This document shows positions 2,675 to 8,057 of a stretch of DNA of 64,000 nucleotides, piece by piece; position 1 is the first letter of the stretch; every line of letters starts with the position of its first letter. Origin of the DNA: an uncultured Candidatus Saccharibacteria bacterium (GTDB taxonomy: Bacteria > Patescibacteriota > Minisyncoccia > Phycocordibacterales > CAIZLB01); NCBI GenBank assembly GCA_964550955.1, contig CAZKAF010000001.1, positions 393,920 through 457,919 of the forward strand, read 5' to 3'. A program made the position numbers and the translations under genes. The notes under the pieces are model-generated. The model ran no database searches. It saw only the letters and a list, made by a program, of their open reading frames with translations, and was not told where the DNA came from.

Positions 2675-4042
2675 CTACTCCGCCACCTCAAGCTTCCGCG
2701 CCACCCATTGGGTAAGCGGAGGCTGTATTACGAGCGTAAGAATGATTACCCACATGCCGACGGATATGACCATGTTCGCGACGCCGTCATTCCCTATGAC
2801 CGAAAGGCCGCTGTATGCGACTTGGATAAGCAGGACGGCCGGAATCACGCCAGTTTCCCGAACCCATGACATGAACAGCAGCTCCTTGACCGTGAACTTG
2901 CTCTTGCCGAACAGGAAGCCGAGCGACGCGAAAACTGAAATCGGCCTGATGACGAATATGAAAACAAGCCCTGCCAAGATTCCGAACAGCGCGTAGTCCA
3001 AAAGAACCTTGACGTTCACTAGGGCTCCGAGAACGATGAAGACGCTCGGCTTCGCTATGCCCTCGATAAGCTGATTAAAGAAGGTCTCGGTCTTGTGAAC
3101 CCTCTCATTCAGCACGACCAAAAGCCCCGCGATGAAGCTGGCCAGATATCCGCTTCCTTCAAACAGCACCGCGAACGCGTAGGCCATGATGGGAATGGCG
3201 ATAAAGAAGCCGATGTCCGCATGACATTCGGCGCGCATGAGCCTTTGCCTGACGAAGAACCGTATCGCGTAGAACCCCATGACGCCGACTGAGGCGCCGA
3301 TAAAGATTTCCTTAAGGAGAAAATTCATTGATTCAACGGACAGCAACGCGCTGAATCCGCTCGAAAGCGAAGTGAATTCCCCTCCCCTCGTCAGGAATGT
3401 TATGAAAGCTACGGTTACGAGCGTTCCGACCACGTCAGTAAGCGCGCTTTCTGAAACCACGATGTCCTTGATTCGGTCTTTCTTGAACTTCAGATCCTTA
3501 AGCACCGGAATAATCGCTGCCGGATCGGTTGAAGCGAGTATGGCGCCCAAAAGGAGCGCCACTGAGATGCTCATGCCGAAGCCCGTCGCGACGCCAAGCG
3601 AGAACAGGCCTTGCGCGAACAGGAAGGTCGAAATGCCGAGACCGACAAACGAAAGGAGCAATGTCGGCAATACGATCTTGCGGAAGCTCGTAAACGATAT
3701 TTCGAGGCCTCCGCCAAACAAGATGTACACGGCTGAAATGGTAACGATCATGTTCAGTATGACCGAATTCTCGACTAACGGCTGCAGCAAATTATTCATG
3801 CTTATGCCGATGAACAGCGCGACGAGAAATGACGGAAAGATGGTGCCCCTTGAAAGCGAATGAGAAATTGTCCCTAACAAGAACATTCCGCCTACGAGAA
3901 AGAGCGGAATGACGGATGACAGTTCGTGCGAATGAGGAAGCGTTTCCGAAAACTGCACGAACAGCGCGTTAAAGACGGCAAAGCAGCCCACGCTCATGAT
4001 GAGCAGGAACAGGGGCGAATGATGCTTCAATTTTAAAAACAT
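2675..4042 (-). CDS. Cation:proton antiporter (CPA1/NhaP-type Na+/H+ exchanger)
   Basis: 455-aa polytopic membrane protein with the ILASTDPAAIIPVLKDL...SESALTDVVG motif typical of Na+/H+ exchanger family proteins. Confidence 0.65.
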   Translation of the reverse strand: MFLKLKHHSPLFLLIMSVGCFAVFNALFVQFSETLPHSHELSSVIPLFLVGGMFLLGTISHSLSRGTIFPSFLVALFIGISMNNLLQPLVENSVILNMIVTISAVYILFGGGLEISFTSFRKIVLPTLLLSFVGLGISTFLFAQGLFSLGVATGFGMSISVALLLGAILASTDPAAIIPVLKDLKFKKDRIKDIVVSESALTDVVGTLVTVAFITFLTRGGEFTSLSSGFSALLSVESMNFLLKEIFIGASVGVMGFYAIRFFVRQRLMRAECHADIGFFIAIPIMAYAFAVLFEGSGYLASFIAGLLVVLNERVHKTETFFNQLIEGIAKPSVFIVLGALVNVKVLLDYALFGILAGLVFIFVIRPISVFASLGFLFGKSKFTVKELLFMSWVRETGVIPAVLLIQVAYSGLSVIGNDGVANMVISVGMWVIILTLVIQPPLTQWVARKLEVAE

Positions 4043-4270
4043 GGAGCTTGATTAGTCTTGATAATGCCTGGCTGCCATGTGACGAACGTATCAAGTATGA
4101 AATGGATTCCCGCTTCCGGATTCGCTCCATTTGAACATGCCGACATACGGCCATCACACGAAAAAGTCAAAAAACCACGGAGTGCGCGCGGCTTTGTACC
4201 TTACTGAAGGCTAATCTGCATTAGTCGCATTCAGTACCAAGTCGTGGAGGCGAAGTTTTTCGGCTTCTTG

Positions 4271-4343
4271 TGGGCGATACAGGACTCGAACCTGTGGCAT
4301 CAACAACGTCAATGTTGCGCTCTACCAACTGAGCTAATCGCCC
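4271..4343 (-). tRNA. tRNA-Val (anticodon GAC)
   Basis: Reverse complement folds as a 73-nt cloverleaf: acceptor GGGCGAT/ATCGCCC, D-arm GCTC-AGTTGGTA-GAGC, anticodon stem CAACA/TGTTG with loop TTGACGT, T-arm ACAGG-TTCGAGT-CCTGT, discriminator A. CCA is not encoded. Confidence 0.85.
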
Positions 4344-4570
4344 GCATTAATTGTTTCCTGAGCATCCGTCCATCCAGGAAAGAATGAACGATTTATTAAA
4401 TCTACCAGACTTTCGGCGCTTTATCAACAGCATTTGCACATGCTTGCCCATGTCCCCGCCCTGATGCGGCCCATGGCCCGGAACCCTTAATATGCGCAAT
4501 GAAATGGCGCATGACGCCATGGGCACGGCTTTGCCTTTTCTGAACAAAAGTGTTATATTGCTCCCTACAT

Positions 4571-4642
4571 GGCCCTATCGTCTATCGGTTAGGACGAAAG
4601 CTTTTCAAGCTTTAAAGCCGGGTTCGACTCCCGGTAGGGTCA
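4571..4642 (+). tRNA. tRNA-Glu (anticodon TTC)
   Basis: 72-nt cloverleaf: acceptor GGCCCTA/TAGGGTC, anticodon stem AAAGC/GCTTT with loop TTTTCAA, T-arm CCGGG-TTCGACT-CCCGG. An extended -10 TGTTATATT lies 11 nt upstream. Confidence 0.85.
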
Positions 4643-4652
4643 CAAAACCGAA

Positions 4653-4690
4653 ACAGCTTCGCATTTCTTTGCGGAGCTGTTTTGCGTTTC
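4653..4690 (+). terminator. Terminator hairpin downstream of tRNA-Glu
   Basis: 10-bp stem acagcttcgc/gcggagctgt (one G-U pair), then TTTGCGTTT. Confidence 0.55.
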
Positions 4691-5381
4691 TAGTGGAACT
4701 AAGCAAGCCAACTGCTTGGCTTGCGTCCGGGAGTCGAAAGGGTTCTCCGTTATTTTCAAGAAATGAGCAGAGCGAATTTTGAGAAAATCGGAAACCCGTA
4801 CTGGTCCTGTAAGGACCGACGAGCGGAAGGATCACAATTCGCAACAAAACGGTTTTCAAAGGCCTCAAATCCGATTGTTTTTCACATTTTCAACCATTCA
4901 ACAAAAAAAGAGGAAGAGCCCGAGACGACATTGCGTCCCGGGCTCAAAAGGAAGAAGAAAAGACCTACCACGATGTCACATTTCTTGGTTGCCCAAGAGG
5001 ACGGCCTGCCGAACATTTAAGTCCGGCAGGAATCACTCCACGTTACATGAGGATACGCCTCATGGCTGCAAAGCTATAATCATTGAGAGCTTCGGTCTCG
5101 GTCGAGAAGGTTTTCCTTCCACCGTAGTCAGCGGCTTCTGCCACCTTAGCTACAAATCTGCGTTTGGATACGCTCTCGTCGTTCGACAGCTTGCGCCGCC
5201 TCGGCTTTCGGTCAAAACGAACTTCCTAGCCATAAGAATACGCCTATTAATATTTTTTGCAACCTTCGTTCACAAACCACCCAATGAACGCCATGCTTTT
5301 GAAAGAAAATATCGCTCCCGCAATCATCCGTCAGGAACAAAAACGGCTTTGCCATGCGTATATTTTGATATAATAGATATT

Positions 5382-6167
5382 ATGCCAATCCTCACATACG
5401 AACAGTATGCAGCAATCAAGCACAGGACTCCCTATGCCCTATCGCTGAAATCAGGCCCGAATTTTCTGTATTACTTTGGCGAACAGCACTCGTTCAAACC
5501 CGCGGATATGCAATGGGTTGCACTCAAGGAGTTTTGGAATGAATTTCTCGAAAAAACAAAAGGTCAAAAAAGAATAGTATTTACAGAAGGCGGAATGCGT
5601 CCCGTTGAACAAAATAAGGGACAGGCAATCCTTAAGCACGGCGGCATGGGCTTGGTCACGCATCTTGCGCACCAGGAAAACATAAAAATGCACTCGCCGG
5701 AGCCCGATGAAGCACACGAACGATCAGAACTTGAAAAGAGTTTCTCGAGGGATGTTATCCAATATTACTATTTTGCCCGAGTCGTTTTGCAATGGGGAAG
5801 AAAAACTGACCCTAAGCCTGATTTTGTAAAATACATCACTCGGTATCTGCAGAGTGATGAAAAAAGAAGCGGCTGGATTGGATACGATTTCTCGCTTGAG
5901 GCAATGAAGGAAATCCATTCGGAACTATTCCAAATTCCTTTTGATGAGAACGATATTGATTTCTTCTATGATACCTCAAATCCTGTCGTAATTAAATCCG
6001 AAATCAACAAAGTTTCCGCCGCCTCAAGCATGATACGAGATGAATATATTGTAAGCGAGATACAGAAATACATGAACGAAGGATATTCCATCTTTGCAGA
6101 ATACGGATGCAGTCACGTGGTGATGCAGGAGCCCGTCTTGAGGGAATTATTTGAATCTGAGGCGTAG
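5382..6167 (+). CDS. Hypothetical protein (orphan, AT-rich gene)
   Basis: The ORF track extends to 4779, but the upstream part is low-complexity read-through. Likely start MPILTYEQYAAIKHRTPY is preceded by TTGATATAATAGATATT-ATG (-10 TATAAT). No recognisable domain. Markedly lower GC than its neighbours. Confidence 0.4.
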   Translation: MPILTYEQYAAIKHRTPYALSLKSGPNFLYYFGEQHSFKPADMQWVALKEFWNEFLEKTKGQKRIVFTEGGMRPVEQNKGQAILKHGGMGLVTHLAHQENIKMHSPEPDEAHERSELEKSFSRDVIQYYYFARVVLQWGRKTDPKPDFVKYITRYLQSDEKRSGWIGYDFSLEAMKEIHSELFQIPFDENDIDFFYDTSNPVVIKSEINKVSAASSMIRDEYIVSEIQKYMNEGYSIFAEYGCSHVVMQEPVLRELFESEA

Positions 6168-6171
6168 TTTA

Positions 6172-6215
6172 TATTAAAAAGGCCTGGCAGTTCCGAAAAC
6201 TGCCAGGCCTTCCCT
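6172..6215. terminator. Bidirectional terminator between the orphan gene and pheA
   Basis: Perfect 12-bp stem ggcctggcagtt/aactgccaggcc (6181-6209), A-run before, T-rich after. Confidence 0.65.
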
Positions 6216-6238
6216 GTCACCGCCGGCCCTCCGACGGC

Positions 6239-6835
6239 TCATGACCCCGACTCAAGAAGAACGAACGTGGTCTTGTTGTCCGGATCGTCCTGAATTCCTT
6301 CAAGCAAGACCTTGAGGTCATAGCCCTCGGCAGCTTCCCTCGTGGAAATTGCCGCCGTGCCCGTGCCCGCGACGCCGAGGCCGGAGAGGAATTTTGCCGC
6401 TTCTCCGGTTGAGCCCCGTTTCAGATGATTCATCGGCAAGACCCCGATTCCCCCCAGGAAAACTGAGCACTGCTCAAACGCTTTCTCATGCGACAGTATG
6501 AACTTGACCTCGGTCGCGCATTGGACGAACGCGGGAACCAGAAGGCAATGCTCCACCGGGAGCTCGAGTCTTCCTTTTTCAGTAATTACCATTCCCCGCT
6601 TGCGCAGGCCGGAGAGAGCGTGAGTGACCTCCGCTATTTCCCCGACAGTCGAATTGAAGATCGGCACGACGGCCAATCCGTTCCCGGCAAGCTCCCGAAC
6701 AAGGAGCTCGTGCGTGTCGCGGAACGCGAATTCGAAATCAACGCCCTCGGTCCAGCCCCGCTCCTTGGCAAAAATTGCGGCAGCGCGGTGGCCATTGGTG
6801 AACTCTCCCAAGACAAGCAGATCTTTCTTTTTCAT
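6239..6835 (-). CDS. pheA: Prephenate dehydratase (catalytic PDT domain only, no ACT domain)
   Basis: LLVLGEFTNGHRAAA..., AVVPIFNSTVGEI, ILSHEKAFEQC and TAAISTREAAEGYDLKVL..NKTTFVLL follow the PDT domain consensus. 198 aa. Confidence 0.65.
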   Translation of the reverse strand: MKKKDLLVLGEFTNGHRAAAIFAKERGWTEGVDFEFAFRDTHELLVRELAGNGLAVVPIFNSTVGEIAEVTHALSGLRKRGMVITEKGRLELPVEHCLLVPAFVQCATEVKFILSHEKAFEQCSVFLGGIGVLPMNHLKRGSTGEAAKFLSGLGVAGTGTAAISTREAAEGYDLKVLLEGIQDDPDNKTTFVLLESGS

Positions 6836-6984
6836 GATGACGCAGAAATCCCTCCGGTTCGTTTGTTAGTTTGAAGTACGATGATTGAAAACCCGTTGAA
6901 AAAATACCATGACGGAAGCCTTAAGTCCATGCCGGACGCCTGTCGCCCGCGCGCCTGGACGATGGGCAGTTTCGGCCCGATTTG

Positions 6985-7013
6985 TTCACAAACCACCCCT
7001 AATCTGCTAGACT
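6985..7013 (+). promoter_or_regulatory. Sigma70-like promoter of nrnA (TTCACA-N17-TAGACT with upstream TG)
   Basis: TTCACA at 6985-6990, 17-nt spacer, TGC-TAGACT at 7005-7013, ATG 9 nt downstream. No Shine-Dalgarno. Confidence 0.5.
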
Positions 7014-7022
7014 CAACATGCA

Positions 7023-8057
7023 ATGAATTATTCTAAAATCAACGATGAGTCCGAGGCTCGAATCTGGAACCTGATTGCCGAGTCGGAGCGCATTTTCATA
7101 ACATCCCACAGGTCTCCGGACGGCGATTCCATAGCATCGACGCTCGGGCTCTATGCCGGAATCAAGAAGCGGCACCCCGAAAAGAGCGTGAGAATCGCTT
7201 ACTCAAATGAGCCTGTTCCGTTTTTCTCGCAATTCGAGAACTATGACAAGATCGAGTTCGTGGAAGAATGCGCGGCTGAAGCCGGCGATGCGGACCTCCT
7301 CGTCCTGCTTGATGCCGGGCAATGGAGCAGGGCAAGCAAAAGCCCCGAAAGCTTCCCTTCCGACAGGCGCACGCTATGCATAGACCACCACGTGTCAGCT
7401 CCTGACAAATTCACCCTCAGCCTCATCGACACCGACTCGCCAAGCTGCGCGCAGCTTGTATACAAGCTCATCGGACCGGAGAATGTCGACGAATCGCTGG
7501 CCAAGACATTCCTCGCGGGCATCCTTGGAGATACCGGATATCTTTCGTTTGTTCGGCCCCATCAAGGCGAGACGTTCCAGATCGTGCAGAGACTTCTGGA
7601 AATCTGCCAGCTGAGCATCGATCAATTCAGGTCTCGATTCGACGGCATGTCCAAGGACGAATTCGAAATCTTGCAGGAATACATACGAAACACGAAGTTT
7701 GAGGAAATTTCCGGATACGCGCCCTTTACATGGAGCTGCATAACTCGCGAGTATGCCGAAAAGCGAGGCTTCTCCGAATCCGAAATTACCGCGGCAAAAA
7801 ATATTTATACGGCAATGTTCATGAAAAGCATAAAAAATTACGATTGGGGCCTTACCGTCAGCCCCAGGAAGGACGGTTCCGCAAGCGTCTCGTTCCGCTC
7901 GGTCGCTCTGGGCGAAAATGTCAGGAAAATAGCCGAAGCCTTGGGAGGCGGCGGGCATGACGCCGCGGCAGGCGCCGGCCTTGCCGATATCCGCGACATG
8001 GACAAGGCATTCGAAATTGTCGTCGAGAAAATGAAGGAGCTCAAGGCGACAAGCTAG
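7023..8057 (+). CDS. nrnA: DHH/DHHA1 phosphoesterase NrnA (oligoribonuclease/pAp phosphatase)
   Basis: SHRSPDGDSIAS, the DHH motif CIDHH, and the DHHA1 GGGGH motif near the C-terminus. Confidence 0.75.
   Translation: MNYSKINDESEARIWNLIAESERIFITSHRSPDGDSIASTLGLYAGIKKRHPEKSVRIAYSNEPVPFFSQFENYDKIEFVEECAAEAGDADLLVLLDAGQWSRASKSPESFPSDRRTLCIDHHVSAPDKFTLSLIDTDSPSCAQLVYKLIGPENVDESLAKTFLAGILGDTGYLSFVRPHQGETFQIVQRLLEICQLSIDQFRSRFDGMSKDEFEILQEYIRNTKFEEISGYAPFTWSCITREYAEKRGFSESEITAAKNIYTAMFMKSIKNYDWGLTVSPRKDGSASVSFRSVALGENVRKIAEALGGGGHDAAAGAGLADIRDMDKAFEIVVEKMKELKATS

What the first reader, a model, noticed from the sequence alone, without database searches (positions are those of the whole stretch)
4643..6167. 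tRNA-flanked ORF-poor region plus an AT-rich orphan gene; possible ncRNA locus or small acquired island
Downstream of tRNA-Glu there is a terminator, then about 700 bp without a credible ORF (only low-complexity read-through frames). The stretch is rich in hairpins: a 9-bp perfect stem at 4703-4724 and CCTGCCG/CGGCAGG at about 5005-5035. It carries a copy of the GTTCACAAACCACCC motif at 5268. A 262-aa orphan gene with conspicuously lower GC and a textbook TATAAT promoter follows. Placement next to tRNA genes and the compositional shift fit horizontal acquisition. The untranslated stretch could encode a structured RNA.
Basis: partly seen in the sequence, partly recalled or inferred. Interest (0 to 1): 0.5.

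Follow-up and report, generated by a model that had tools for sequence, protein, structure and literature searches.

The report
tRNA-tail-mimicking repeat element plus hydrolase gene
Just after a tRNA gene lies one worn copy of a roughly 150-base folded element that is common in tiny-genome (Patescibacteria/CPR) bacteria, is absent from Rfam, and is built like the poorly understood RtT repeat of E. coli, with ends that copy and mirror the tail of the neighbouring tRNA; the "orphan" gene beside it is a conserved hydrolase-like gene.

Summary
Its interpretation is only partly right.

**The structured element.**
- It lies directly 3' of tRNA genes on the tRNA strand. A probable, contig-truncated tmRNA end precedes one copy.
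- I found more than 70 copies in metagenomes, behind tRNAs of 16 anticodon species.
- Covariation is strong: 94% of cells paired against 76% when shuffled, and 24 of 36 pairs show compensatory changes.
- The 5' arm is antisense to the last ~20 nt of the local tRNA. The 3' arm is a direct copy of those ~20 nt.
- Rfam 15 has no model for it.
- E. coli RtT (the tyrT-distal 178-bp repeats) has the same design but no sequence similarity.
- The window copy has an intact core and decayed arms.

**The rest of the spacer.** Window 4838-5381 resembles nothing else I could find and has no coding support.

**The "orphan" gene.** It has 62 homologues. Its predicted fold matches TraB/ChaN/EreC-type proteins. 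It carries its own leaderless TGnTATAAT promoter.
- It directly follows tRNA-Val/tRNA-Glu in two other genomes, so the spacer is the lineage-specific part, not the gene.
- It is strongly AT-shifted, but it has no att repeats and no integrase.

The function of the element is unknown. The most likely reading is an RtT-like RNA processed from the tRNA transcript.

The parts
4270..4343 (-). tRNA-Val(GAC). In this genome no element follows it.
   Evidence: ARAGORN. Rfam tRNA model, 70.9 bits. R1 with filters off finds no copy downstream of it.
4571..4643 (+). tRNA-Glu(UUC). Its 3' end, TTCGACTCCCGGTAGGGTCA, is the sequence that the element mirrors and copies.
   Evidence: The 12-mer at 4623-4634 is the exact reverse complement of 4727-4738.
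4649..4684 (+). Spacer hairpin between the tRNA and the element. It looks like a terminator. T-rich tails on both strands extend the palindrome between the tRNA tail and the element's 5' arm.
   Evidence: Terminator scan: 15 pairs. The same position in other copies holds either a terminator or a GAGCGAAC-type spacer.
4689..4837 (+). One copy of the tRNA-3'-linked structured element.
- Degenerate 5' arm: 4693-4700.
- Hairpin Pa: 4703-4724.
- P2 5' strand GGGAGTCG: 4729-4736.
- P3: 4740-4757 paired with 4783-4797, with a tip hairpin between them.
- GTACTG junction: 4798-4803.
- P4 (GTCCT-GTA-AGGAC): 4804-4816.
- Decayed copy of the tRNA tail, CGACGAGCGGAAGGATCACA: 4817-4836.
   Evidence: - CM R1 scores 122.8 bits, E = 7e-28, and this is the only hit in the window.
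- An HMM built without the window gives E = 1.5e-30.
- Alignment A3 and RNAalifold support the structure.
- Pair counts support it as well.
- The single-sequence MFE reproduces Pa, P3 and P4, with z = -3.75.
- The arms match the tRNA at 5/8, 11/12 and 12/17 positions.
4838..5365 (.). Lineage-specific non-coding remainder with no detectable relatives. It may be decayed leftovers of older insertions, or a small minus-strand transcription unit.
   Evidence: - No blastn or tblastx similarity to 1.3 Mb of related loci.
- No similarity to phages or plasmids.
- No meaningful family hit and no homologue for its conceptual peptides; the only row was 13 bits at E = 0.083 for a 47-aa ORF.
4916..4945 (-). 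Strong minus-strand terminator-like hairpin: 12 bp, 9 of them G-C, followed by TTCCTCTTTTTTTGTT.
   Evidence: The minus strand of 4900-5260 folds with z = -3.83.
5005..5030 (.). It has no comparative support.
5268..5282 (+). 15-mer GTTCACAAACCACCC, repeated at 6984-6998. The repeat is at chance level. Each copy overlaps a -35-like hexamer.
5366..5374 (+). Extended -10 promoter TGATATAAT. It ends 7 nt before the ATG and there is no Shine-Dalgarno sequence, so the mRNA is leaderless.
   Evidence: The same TGnTATAAT lies 6-7 nt before the ATG in homologues that sit in unrelated contexts: L020, L022, L025, L028, L017, L010.
5382..6167 (+). Conserved 261-aa protein (called X261 here). It is predicted to have a TraB/ChaN/EreC-like fold. 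It is AT-shifted.
   Evidence: - 62 homologues.
- Invariant G33-E34-x-H36, E69, G242 and H245.
- AlphaFold2 mean pLDDT 93.6.
- Composition.
6180..6210 (.). Bidirectional terminator hairpin shared by X261 and the convergent prephenate dehydratase gene (6239-6835, minus strand).
   Evidence: Sequence. A weak, hairpin-driven asX1 match. PDT domain.

Best explanation
**What the stretch contains.** The ORF-poor stretch is not one thing.

**1. The element (4689-4837).** Its first 150 nt after the tRNA-Glu spacer hairpin are a copy of a repeat family of Patescibacteria. I describe this family as RtT-like.
- A unit sits directly behind a tRNA gene, on the tRNA strand. One copy follows a probable tmRNA end.
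- The unit's 3' end duplicates the tRNA's last ~17-20 nt, from the T loop to the discriminator.
- The unit's 5' end is the Watson-Crick complement of that same tail.
- The 5' complement is split, exactly at the boundary between acceptor stem and T stem, by a variable hairpin (Pa).
- The two ends pair. They enclose a conserved core: P3, the junction GTACTG, and P4 with a GTA loop.
- The fold therefore has the layout of the upper half of a tRNA, with extra domains.

**Shown:**
- membership of the window copy;
- the structure, supported by covariation;
- the strand on which the structure forms;
- the linkage to tRNAs;
- the matching of the arms to the local tRNA;
- tandem arrays;
- shared variable parts among copies within one genome.

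**Inferred, by analogy with E. coli rtT RNA:**
- The unit is transcribed as part of the tRNA precursor, or by read-through.
- Its tRNA-like closing helix lets tRNA-end processing enzymes cut it out as a stable small RNA.
- Units multiply and are lost by recombination between the repeated tRNA tails, at the tRNA's 3' end.

The window copy has an intact core, including a compensatory TCCG/CGGA change in P3, but decayed arms. It is therefore an old copy.

**2. The remainder (4838-5381).** This is unique non-coding DNA, probably remains of older insertions.

**3. The gene (5382-6167).** It is a self-contained, leaderless gene for a hydrolase-like protein. It habitually sits behind tRNA genes and is AT-rich relative to its hosts.
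For: **Family and window membership**
- 72 of the 128 occurrences outside the window carry the same core.
- 53 distinct copies align along their whole length.

**Structure**
- RNAalifold predicts 36 pairs, 24 of them with double compensatory changes.
- 94.0% of cells are paired against 75.9% in shuffles. The covariation score is 0.482 against 0.148, and 0 of 500 shuffles reach it. Sliding the partners gives at most 59% paired.
- G-U to A-C counts are 90 to 12 on the tRNA-sense strand.

**Linkage to tRNAs**
- A tRNA ends 50-118 nt upstream of the 20-mer, on the same strand, in 39 distinct copies. One divergent copy starts only 15 nt after its tRNA.
- Divergent copies found by the CM all lie just 3' of tRNAs.
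- 16 anticodon species are involved.
- One copy follows a probable tmRNA 3' end. The match is truncated by the contig end and scores 42.4 bits, below the gathering score of 47.

**Arms match the local tRNA**
- 27 of 39 copies have at least 7/8 complementarity in P1.
- 18 of 39 copies have at least a 14/17 direct repeat of the tRNA tail.
- The variable base N5 covaries with its partner: UA 20, AU 15, CG 7, GC 4.

**Arrays and behaviour within genomes**
- Tandem arrays have units that run from one tRNA tail to the next.
- In five arrays, no distal copy scores higher than the copy nearest the tRNA.
- Copies behind different tRNAs in one contig share the P3 tip and P4.

**The RtT analogy**
- The E. 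coli tyrT/tyrV repeats end in the last 19 nt of tRNA-Tyr, starting in the T loop. An internal GGGGAAGGAT pairs with that tail. Rfam's consensus structure for RtT draws that helix.

**Insertion status in the window**
- L004 and L010 have tRNA-Glu followed directly by X261.
Against: - There are no expression data, so an RNA product is not shown.
- Many copies have a good intrinsic terminator between the tRNA and the element. That argues against simple co-transcription.
- I found no promoter for the element.
- A folded single-stranded DNA would produce the same covariation and the same G-T asymmetry.
- I cannot explain how all three segments come to match whichever tRNA is adjacent. Plain recombination between tails does not explain the antisense arm.
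- The RtT analogy rests on design only. RF00391 does not hit the window, and R1 does not hit the E. coli locus.
- My 20-mer seed biases the sample toward one subfamily and toward tRNAs whose T stem ends in CCC.
Confidence: 0.6

Rival explanations
1. The element is above all a non-autonomous mobile DNA element that integrates at the 3' end of tRNA and tmRNA genes.
- Its folded single strand rebuilds a duplex identical to the tRNA gene's segment from T loop to 3' end.
- That duplex would act as an attP mimic, as in CTX phage or integron attC sites.
- A recombinase encoded elsewhere would use it.
- Any RNA made from it would be incidental.
For: - Direct repeats of the tRNA tail flank each unit, and the tandem units run exactly from tail to tail.
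- In L039/L072 and L054 the outermost repeat carries an encoded CCA that the tRNA-proximal copy lacks. That is expected if the element supplies a replacement tail.
- tRNA and tmRNA genes are the classic integrase targets. One copy sits behind a probable tmRNA end.
- Presence and absence differ between related loci.
- Decayed partial copies pile up distal to intact ones.
- A Fic gene sits between copies in L019.
- The asymmetry on the structured strand is also compatible with G-T pairs in ssDNA.
Against: - No integrase, transposase, HUH or RT gene recurs within +/-4 kb of 65 copies.
- The element was not found in IMG/VR, phage or plasmid collections.
- A site-specific element should keep one tRNA target. 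Here the arms match 16 tRNA species while the cores stay nearly identical.
- No core-type inverted binding sites flank the presumed crossover.
Confidence: 0.25
2. The element is a catalytic or cis-acting RNA that serves tRNA maturation. It could, for example, be a self-cleaving ribozyme or a processing guide in the 3' trailer, in genomes with a reduced set of RNases.
For: - Invariant nucleotides cluster in junctions: AAA after P2, GTACTG, the GTA loop and CGA.
- The stems vary with compensation. That is the pattern of small ribozymes.
- The element always lies in tRNA 3' trailers.
- A precedent exists: HDV-like theta ribozymes next to phage tRNAs (PMC10879173, found; abstract only read).
Against: - No match to any Rfam ribozyme family.
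- The element starts 15-85 nt beyond the tRNA end, usually after a terminator, so cleavage there would not mature the tRNA.
- About half or more of the tRNAs in the same loci lack it.
- Arrays and decayed copies look selfish rather than essential.
Confidence: 0.08
3. The whole interval 4644-6230 is a horizontally acquired island integrated at tRNA-Glu, with X261 as its cargo.
For: - X261 has GC z = -4.5 and GC3 z = -3.8.
- Its closest homologues (73-77% identity) lie in low-GC contigs with unrelated neighbours. One sits beside an IS3 transposase and a recombinase fragment.
- The promoter-plus-gene module TGATATAAT-N6/7-ATG is conserved across those contexts.
- X261 lies behind a tRNA in 5 of 17 genome loci. 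In a sixth (L019) a tRNA-Glu lies about 800 bp away on the opposite strand.
Against: - No repeat of the tRNA-Glu tail lies downstream of X261, here or in five other loci.
- There is no integrase.
- The block tRNA-Val/tRNA-Glu/X261 is shared with L004 and L010.
- X261 is AT-richer than its host locus in 10 of the 11 loci checked, so the shift is partly a property of the family.
Confidence: 0.2
4. The stretch 4838-5381 encodes a small minus-strand protein, or is a recently frameshifted gene. Transcription would start at a promoter near 5246-5274 and end at the terminator at 4945-4916.
For: - On the minus strand: -35 TTGTGA, a 17-nt spacer, -10 TATTAA, then ATG at 5233.
- Two overlapping frames together give a 63-aa conceptual product.
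- A strong terminator follows.
- An independent Logan assembly gives identical sequence.
Against: - No homologue among 5.8 billion proteins.
- No Pfam or NCBIfam match for the 63-aa conceptual product. The only row was 13 bits at E = 0.083 for a separate 47-aa ORF.
- No related DNA in any locus.
- A frameshift has to be assumed.
Confidence: 0.1

Closest known systems
RtT RNA (rttR; Rfam RF00391): the 178-bp repeats distal to tyrT/tyrV in E. coli
   Same: - It lies directly 3' of a tRNA gene on the same strand.
- The unit is about 130-180 nt and is tandemly repeated.
- Each unit ends in a duplicate of the tRNA's 3'-terminal ~19 nt, starting inside the T loop.
- An internal segment complementary to that tail forms the closing helix around internal hairpins.
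- The RNA is reported to be processed from the tyrT transcript, and its function is still unclear (bioRxiv 10.1101/2024.07.17.603846; also my own recollection of the older literature).
   Different: - There is no sequence or covariance-model similarity in either direction.
- The CPR element adds an antisense copy of the acceptor strand and the discriminator.
- It has a hairpin at the boundary between acceptor stem and T stem.
- It has a different core.
- It serves 16 tRNA species and probably a tmRNA, not only tRNA-Tyr.
- The duplicated tail usually lacks CCA.
tRNA/tmRNA-targeting integrative elements and their integrase-less derivatives (CIME-like elements)
   Same: - Direct repeats of the tRNA tail, from T loop to 3' end, bound the unit.
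- The element supplies the tRNA's new tail and often a terminator.
- Arrays build up at the tRNA end.
   Different: - No integrase anywhere nearby.
- The unit is only ~150-185 bp.
- It carries an antisense copy of the att segment.
- One conserved core serves many tRNA targets.
REP/REPIN elements mobilised by RAYT transposases
   Same: - Short, structured, multi-copy extragenic repeats lie at the 3' ends of genes.
- Sequences are homogenised within genomes.
- No gene lies inside the repeat.
   Different: - REPINs are simple symmetric hairpins.
- They are not tied to tRNA genes.
- They do not copy their target.
- No RAYT-like gene was seen here.
tRNA-like ends of other RNAs (tmRNA tRNA-like domain, viral tRNA-like structures, mascRNA)
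   Same: The helices equivalent to acceptor stem and T stem are stacked, with other domains attached where the D and anticodon arms or the T loop would be. That layout could recruit RNase P, RNase Z or the CCA-adding enzyme. This is inference.
   Different: - The T-loop nucleotides are base-paired rather than forming a T loop.
- The 5' strand is a perfect complement of the tail, discriminator included.
- There is no match to the Rfam tRNA, tmRNA or mascRNA models over the element.
TraB/PrgY/GumN - ChaN - EreA/EreC - Tiki superfamily (for the 261-aa protein)
   Same: - Invariant G-E-x-H near the N terminus, a central E, and G-x-x-H near the C terminus. From memory, these resemble the GX2H...E...GX2H signature described for this superfamily.
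   Different: - No Pfam hit for the window protein. TraB_PrgY_gumN appears only at E = 0.031 in 2 of 21 relatives.
- Foldseek against the PDB gives nothing significant beyond the TraB chain.
- The substrate is unknown.

Membership tests
RtT RNA (Rfam RF00391) | Scores at or above the family's gathering threshold (45 bits) with the Rfam covariance model | tested here: not met
   No RF00391 match in window 4000-7100 even at E <= 10, and none in 8 loci that carry the element. The same model scores 133-138 bits on the E. coli locus.
RtT RNA (Rfam RF00391) | Lies directly 3' of a tRNA gene on the same strand | tested here: met
   The window element starts 46 nt after tRNA-Glu. The family shows the same placement.
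RtT RNA (Rfam RF00391) | The unit ends in a direct duplicate of the tRNA's 3'-terminal segment, starting in the T loop | tested here: inconclusive
   In the family, 18 of 39 copies match at 14/17 or better. The window copy matches at only 12/17 (ACGAGCGGAAGGATCAC against ACTCCCGGTAGGGTCAC), which is consistent with decay.
RtT RNA (Rfam RF00391) | An internal segment complementary to that duplicate closes the structure | tested here: met
   Helix GGGANTCG/CGANTCCC is 91.5% paired, and its variable base covaries. In the window, GTCG/CGAC is kept and the three G-C pairs are lost. An alternative UCCG/CGGA pairing appears in the MFE fold.
RtT RNA (Rfam RF00391) | Tandem repetition of the unit | tested here: not met
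   The 64-kb window has a single copy. Arrays exist in other members: L039/L072, L061/L107, L100, L019.
RtT RNA (Rfam RF00391) | Released from the tRNA transcript as a stable RNA | not testable with these tools
   No transcript data are available.
CPR tRNA-3'-linked element family defined here (alignment A3, model R1) | Full-length match to the family profile, including all invariant core positions | tested here: met
   R1 scores 122.8 bits, though the window is in that model's seed. An HMM built from the 52 other copies finds 4693-4822 at E = 1.5e-30. All 30 invariant columns are present.
CPR tRNA-3'-linked element family defined here (alignment A3, model R1) | 5' arm antisense to the tail of the adjacent tRNA | tested here: met
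   The T-arm part matches 11/12; 4727-4738 is the exact reverse complement of 4623-4634. The acceptor part matches only 5/8.
tRNA-integrating genomic island or integrative element | An integrase or recombinase gene inside or beside the element | tested here: not met
   None lies in window 4644-6230. No protein family recurs around 65 copies.
tRNA-integrating genomic island or integrative element | A direct repeat of the tRNA 3' end at the distal boundary of the island | tested here: not met
   For an island that includes X261, no repeat was found at up to 4/22 mismatches, in the window or in five other loci. Only the decayed repeat at 4817-4836 bounds the 150-nt element.
tRNA-integrating genomic island or integrative element | Compositional deviation from the host genome | tested here: met
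   X261 has GC z = -4.5 and GC3 z = -3.8. The spacer 4644-5381 has 46.5% GC against 52.5% for the window.
TraB/ChaN/EreA/Tiki superfamily (X261 protein) | Shared fold | tested here: met
   [not shown]
TraB/ChaN/EreA/Tiki superfamily (X261 protein) | Pfam TraB_PrgY_gumN (PF01963) above its gathering score | tested here: not met
   No hit for the window protein. 2 of 21 relatives hit at best E = 0.031.
TraB/ChaN/EreA/Tiki superfamily (X261 protein) | Conserved His/Glu signature (GX2H ... E ... GX2H) at the active site | tested here: inconclusive
   G33, E34, H36, E69, G242 and H245 are invariant in 21 sequences. I did not superpose them on the catalytic residues of a solved member. The signature itself is recalled from memory.

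The most novel reading that the evidence does not exclude
The family could be a new kind of self-propagating element that targets the tails of tRNA and tmRNA genes. On arrival it would rebuild both of its arms from whichever tRNA it lands behind. The mechanism would be RNA-templated, or would use folded ssDNA, with no dedicated protein encoded nearby. Its conserved junction nucleotides might form a catalytic or recombinase-recruiting core. E. coli RtT would then be a distant relic of the same principle.
Probability: 0.15. Interest if true: 0.85.

Novelty: new variant of a known kind. Interest (0 to 1): 0.6.

Why it matters
**Scale.** Behind what looked like 700 bp of junk sits a large family of structured elements that Rfam does not catalogue.
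- The family decorates many tRNA genes in Patescibacteria. These organisms have minimal genomes, in which non-coding DNA is scarce and therefore informative.
- In loci selected through the element's own motif, 56 of 101 tRNAs carry it. In loci chosen independently of the element, 3 of 15 do.

**Link to an old puzzle.** The family has the same unusual design as the RtT repeats of E. coli, whose function has been unclear since the 1970s-1990s. A broad, covarying family gives RtT-type elements a comparative handle for the first time.

**An open mechanistic question.** How do three separate segments of each copy come to match the adjacent tRNA?

**Practical uses.**
- The covariance model can be used to annotate these elements.
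- It can help avoid calling spurious ORFs across them. Spurious ORFs spanning the element formed the largest "protein family" in my neighbourhood clustering.
- It can mark hot spots of genome change next to tRNA genes.

**The protein.** X261 is a candidate new branch of the TraB/ChaN/Ere superfamily.

Tried and rejected
- **Known RNA families.** I ran Rfam at the gathering threshold on the whole window, at E <= 10 on 4000-7100, and at E <= 1 on 8 other loci. Only tRNAs, one probable tmRNA end and chance-level hits came back.
- **A tmRNA or two-piece tmRNA on the minus strand.** The tag-like reading ...ALNDYSFAA prompted this idea. ARAGORN and Rfam find none, and the frame does not stop after AA.
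- **A frameshifted ribbon-helix-helix antitoxin or small protein on the minus strand.** There is no Pfam or NCBIfam match for the conceptual product and no homologue at all.
- **An integrase, transposase or RT partner.** Clustering all ORFs within +/-4 kb of 65 copies gave only spurious ORFs over the element and a few syntenic housekeeping genes. The 330-aa ORF between copies in L019 is a Fic-domain protein, not a recombinase.
- **att repeats bounding an X261 island.** None were found.
- **Viral or plasmid origin.**
  - The 20-mer has no exact match in IMG/VR.
  - The looser pattern gave 38 viral hits, none confirmed by the CM.
  - There is no blastn match in the phage or plasmid collections.
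- **A hammerhead-like reading of the junctions** (GAAA after P2, GUA before P4). The CUGAUGA strand is missing, so I rejected it by inspection.
- **A retroviral PBS-like origin of the antisense arm.** I rejected it because the arm is interrupted by Pa and lacks the complement of CCA.
- **The 15-mer GTTCACAAACCACCC as a regulatory motif.** It has two copies, which is chance level.
- **Literature searches for a description of the element.** Five queries found none. The library is incomplete, so this is weak evidence of novelty.
- **The afdb50 fold library** was unavailable.
Full report
**Setting.** ARAGORN and Rfam agree on two divergent tRNA genes: tRNA-Val(GAC) at 4270-4343 on the minus strand and tRNA-Glu(UUC) at 4571-4643 on the plus strand. 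Nothing else in the 64-kb window reaches an Rfam gathering score. A permissive scan of 4000-7100 (E <= 10) adds only chance-level hits, none over 4644-5381. The neighbouring genes are:
- a Na+/H+ exchanger;
- a prephenate dehydratase (6239-6835, minus strand);
- a DHH phosphoesterase;
- TsaD.

Homologues of the local proteins come from Kaiserbacteria-type and other Patescibacteria MAGs. The window is therefore from a CPR bacterium, with 52.5% GC.

**Checking the observation.** These are the hairpin after the tRNA (4649-4684), the perfect 9-bp stem (4703-4724), CCTGCCG/CGGCAGG (5005-5030), the 15-mer at 5268, and TATAAT at 5369-5374.
- No frame in 4644-5381 is supported. There is no meaningful Pfam or NCBIfam hit and no homologue for the best conceptual peptide.
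- The 15-mer occurs twice, at 5268 and 6984. That is what chance gives in 64 kb.
- The gene at 5382-6167 is not an orphan. It has 62 homologues at 46-77% identity.

**The lead.**
- A blastn of the spacer against loci that encode homologues of the gene gave one short hit, in L019.
- Read side by side, the window and L019 share ACTAAGC - hairpin - GCGTC(C/A)GGGA(G/A)TCGAAA(G/A)GGTTCTCC.
- The hairpin stems are completely different but still complementary: GCAAGCCAA/TTGGCTTGC against GCTCGTAC/GTACGAGC. In L019 the motif follows a fragment of a tRNA-Glu tail.
- 72 of the 128 occurrences outside the window carry the same downstream core. Most of the rest are ordinary coding sequence.

**Anatomy of the element.** Fifty-three distinct copies align over their whole length, with 30 invariant columns. 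Reading 5' to 3' on the tRNA strand, a unit consists of:
1. the complement of the tRNA's acceptor 3' strand, including the discriminator;
2. a variable 8-10-bp hairpin (Pa), usually with a CUGC loop;
3. the complement of the T-stem 3' strand and the T loop (GGGANTCG);
4. AAA;
5. a long hairpin, P3, with a conserved base and a variable tip;
6. GTACTG;
7. a short hairpin, P4, with a GTA loop;
8. a direct copy of the tRNA's tail from the T loop to the discriminator.

Segments 1 and 3 pair with segment 8. This closing helix repeats the acceptor/T-stem stack of the tRNA. Pa emerges exactly where the D and anticodon arms would, and P3/P4 sit where the T loop would.

**Evidence for the structure.**
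- RNAalifold recovers Pa, P2, P3 and P4. Of 36 pairs, 24 show compensatory double changes.
- On the named structure, 94.0% of cells pair against 75.9 +/- 0.6% after shuffling.
- The covariation score is 0.482 against 0.148, and 0 of 500 shuffles reach it.
- Sliding the partners by 1-3 columns drops pairing to 31-59%.
- The variable base in GGGANTCG covaries with its partner (UA 20, AU 15, CG 7, GC 4). It also tracks the T loop of the adjacent tRNA.
- G-U pairs outnumber A-C mismatches 90 to 12 on the tRNA-sense strand. That strand is therefore the one that folds.

**Link to tRNAs.**
- In 39 distinct copies a tRNA ends 50-118 nt upstream of the 20-mer on the same strand.
- The complement of the last 8 nt of the tRNA is present at 7/8 or better in 27 copies.
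- The direct repeat of the last 17 nt is present at 14/17 or better in 18 copies.
- A covariance model (R1) finds more divergent copies. Every one I checked lies just 3' of a tRNA on its strand: tRNA-Val in L010, L025 and L061; tRNA-Ser(CGA), Gly(GCC) and Leu(UAA) elsewhere. The L061 copy starts only 15 nt after its tRNA.
- One copy follows what is probably the 3' end of a tmRNA gene. That Rfam match is truncated by the contig end and falls just below the gathering score.
- A profile-HMM census gives 16 anticodon species. The element follows 56 of 101 tRNAs in the motif-selected loci, 3 of 15 in loci chosen independently through the protein, and 1 of 2 in the window.

**Repeat behaviour.**
- Several loci carry tandem arrays whose unit runs from one tRNA tail to the next (L039/L072, L061+L107, L100, L019).
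- In two arrays the outermost tail carries an encoded CCA that the tRNA-proximal tail lacks.
- In five arrays no distal copy scores higher than the copy nearest the tRNA. Truncated 3' pieces accumulate further out.
- Copies behind tRNA-Ser, tRNA-Glu and tRNA-Val in one contig share the otherwise variable P3 tip and P4. Their arms follow their own tRNAs, and the base of P3 differs by a compensated GG/CC swap.
- No protein family recurs within 4 kb of 65 copies.
- No copy was found in IMG/VR, phage or plasmid collections.

**The window copy.**
- R1 finds exactly one copy in the window, at 4689-4842 (122.8 bits).
- A profile built without the window finds 4693-4822 at E = 1.5e-30.
- Pa, P3 and P4 are intact. 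P3 carries two compensated changes relative to the consensus: TCCG/CGGA for TCCC/GGGA, and G-C for A-U at the base.
- The single sequence folds into the family structure with z = -3.75.
- The arms are worn. The T-arm antisense part is perfect (4727-4738 against 4623-4634). The acceptor antisense part matches 5/8 and the distal tail copy 12/17.
Its "terminator" is the spacer hairpin of the module.

**Closest known thing.** The design matches the tyrT-distal repeats of E. coli, which I recalled and then checked.
- Downstream of tyrV, and between tyrT and tyrV, lie four RtT units (RF00391, 133-138 bits).
- Each unit ends in AATCCTTCCCCCACCACCA, the last 19 nt of tRNA-Tyr starting in the T loop.
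- Each unit contains GGGGAAGGAT, which Rfam's consensus structure pairs with that tail.
- The similarity is one of architecture only. RF00391 does not hit the window, and R1 does not hit the E. coli locus.
- rtT RNA is reported to be processed out of the tyrT transcript, and its role is unsettled (and my recollection of the older papers).

I therefore file the CPR family as a new variant of the RtT kind, not as a member of RF00391.

**Mechanism.**
- *Shown:* a single-stranded fold on the tRNA strand, tRNA-tail mimicry, multi-copy and array behaviour, and gain and loss between related loci.
- *Inferred:* the unit is made as RNA from the tRNA transcription unit, is trimmed by tRNA-end enzymes because of its closing helix, and expands and contracts by recombination between tails.

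The weak points are these:
- frequent intrinsic terminators lie between the tRNA and the element;
- there is no identified promoter;
- there are no transcript data;
- I have no explanation for how all three segments match each new tRNA.

A folded-ssDNA attachment-site mimic, as in CTX phage or integron attC, fits the same data and is the main rival. A ribozyme or processing role is a weaker one.

**The rest of the spacer.**
- 4838-5381 resembles nothing in 1.3 Mb of related loci, nor in phages or plasmids.
- On the minus strand it has a promoter-like TTGTGA-17-TATTAA, two short overlapping frames and a strong terminator (4945-4916). It folds better than shuffles, with z = -3.8.
- The conceptual peptide has no relatives.
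- I regard it as lineage-specific non-coding DNA, possibly debris of earlier insertions at this tRNA. That is a guess.

**The gene 5382-6167.**
- The family is well conserved, with 46 invariant positions in 21 sequences. These include G33-E34-x-H36, E69, G242 and H245.
- The AlphaFold2 model is confident, with mean pLDDT 93.6.
- Foldseek against the PDB finds nothing below E = 1e-3. Its best match is the TraB chain at E = 0.02.
- Two relatives give weak TraB_PrgY_gumN matches.
- A metal-dependent hydrolase of that superfamily is the best guess.
- The gene has an extended -10 box that ends 7 nt before the ATG, and no Shine-Dalgarno sequence. The same TGnTATAAT-N6/7-ATG module recurs in homologues with unrelated neighbours, so the mRNA is leaderless and the gene carries its own promoter.

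**Was the gene acquired?**
- Its GC and GC3 are far below the window's genes (z = -4.5 and -3.8).
- Its nearest relatives (73-77% identity) sit in low-GC contigs in different contexts, once beside an IS3 transposase.
- Against a simple island:
  - the tRNA-Val/tRNA-Glu/gene block recurs in L004 and L010, with gaps of 30 and 153 bp;
  - no tRNA-tail repeat lies beyond the gene;
  - the family is AT-richer than its host in 10 of the 11 loci checked.
- Replacement in place, or repeated capture at tRNA hot spots, remains possible.
- pheA is not next to tRNA-Glu in any related locus.

**Verdict.** The structured-RNA idea holds for 150 nt. The island idea holds for the spacer rather than for the gene. 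The "orphan" label does not hold.

Noticed in passing
window 4905-5290 (minus strand): A possible small transcription unit. It has -35 TTGTGA (5274-5269), a 17-nt spacer, -10 TATTAA (5251-5246) and ATG at 5233. Two overlapping short frames follow (27 aa, then an open 60-codon frame), then a hairpin at 5005-5030 and a strong terminator at 4945-4916. The fold has z = -3.8. No homologues were found.
   Followed up: partly
window 5268-5282 and 6984-6998: Exact 15-mer GTTCACAAACCACCC. The copy at 6984 supplies the -35 (TTCACA) of a promoter-like site 9 nt upstream of the DHH-family gene's ATG (7023). Statistically the repeat is at chance level.
   Followed up: yes
L115 (oriented fragment positions 1-170; locus minus strand): A tRNA-Gly(CCC) gene appears to be split after the anticodon by an insert of about 113 nt. 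The insert itself contains a complete, different tRNA-Gly(CCC) gene and is flanked by 9-bp inverted repeats (CACCAATTT/AAATTGGTG). The displaced 3' half is then followed by a copy of the element whose arms match that displaced half.
   Followed up: no
L019 1508-3275 (minus strand): tRNA-Glu(CUC) is followed by three copies of the element, two of them from a divergent subfamily with a CCTTTTGAGCC... core. A 330-aa Fic/DOC-domain gene (1921-2913) lies between the first and second copies. A remnant of a further copy lies upstream of the tRNA.
   Followed up: partly
L066 1-290: A copy of the element follows what is probably the 3' end of a tmRNA gene (Rfam RF00023, model positions 271-374, cut by the contig end; 42.4 bits against a gathering score of 47). 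Its arms match that tail.
   Followed up: partly
L061 375-513; L085 11869-12018; L041 1875-2019; L101 6524-6666; L098 3138-3275: Subfamilies share the 5' module (antisense arm, Pa, GGGANTCGAA) and P4 but have different P3 sequences. These include a compensated AAGGTT...AACCT to AACCTT...AAGGT swap. The family is broader than the 20-mer used to find it.
   Followed up: partly
homologues of window 5382-6167 (P0011, P0026, P0029, P0037): Some family members are 443-457 aa long. Three of them (P0011, P0026, P0037) carry SAM-methyltransferase Pfam domains (PF13649, PF08241, PF13489) fused to the conserved 260-aa module. P0029 has no domain annotation.
   Followed up: no
L003, L004, L007, L010, L011, L019 and the window: The 261-aa gene lies directly behind a tRNA gene (Glu or Phe) in 5 of 17 independently sampled genome loci. 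In L019 it diverges from a tRNA-Glu about 800 bp away on the opposite strand. In L003 a 189-aa membrane-protein ORF fills the gap between tRNA and gene, where the window has the element and spacer.
   Followed up: partly
window 6239-6835 (minus strand): The prephenate dehydratase is only 198 aa long. It has the PDT domain alone, with no ACT regulatory domain.
   Followed up: no
neighbourhoods of 17 element loci (e.g. L072 oriented -305..+396): Mechanical ORF calling produces long spurious minus-strand ORFs across element arrays. These clustered as the largest "protein family" around the element. This is a likely source of false hypothetical proteins in CPR annotations.
   Followed up: partly
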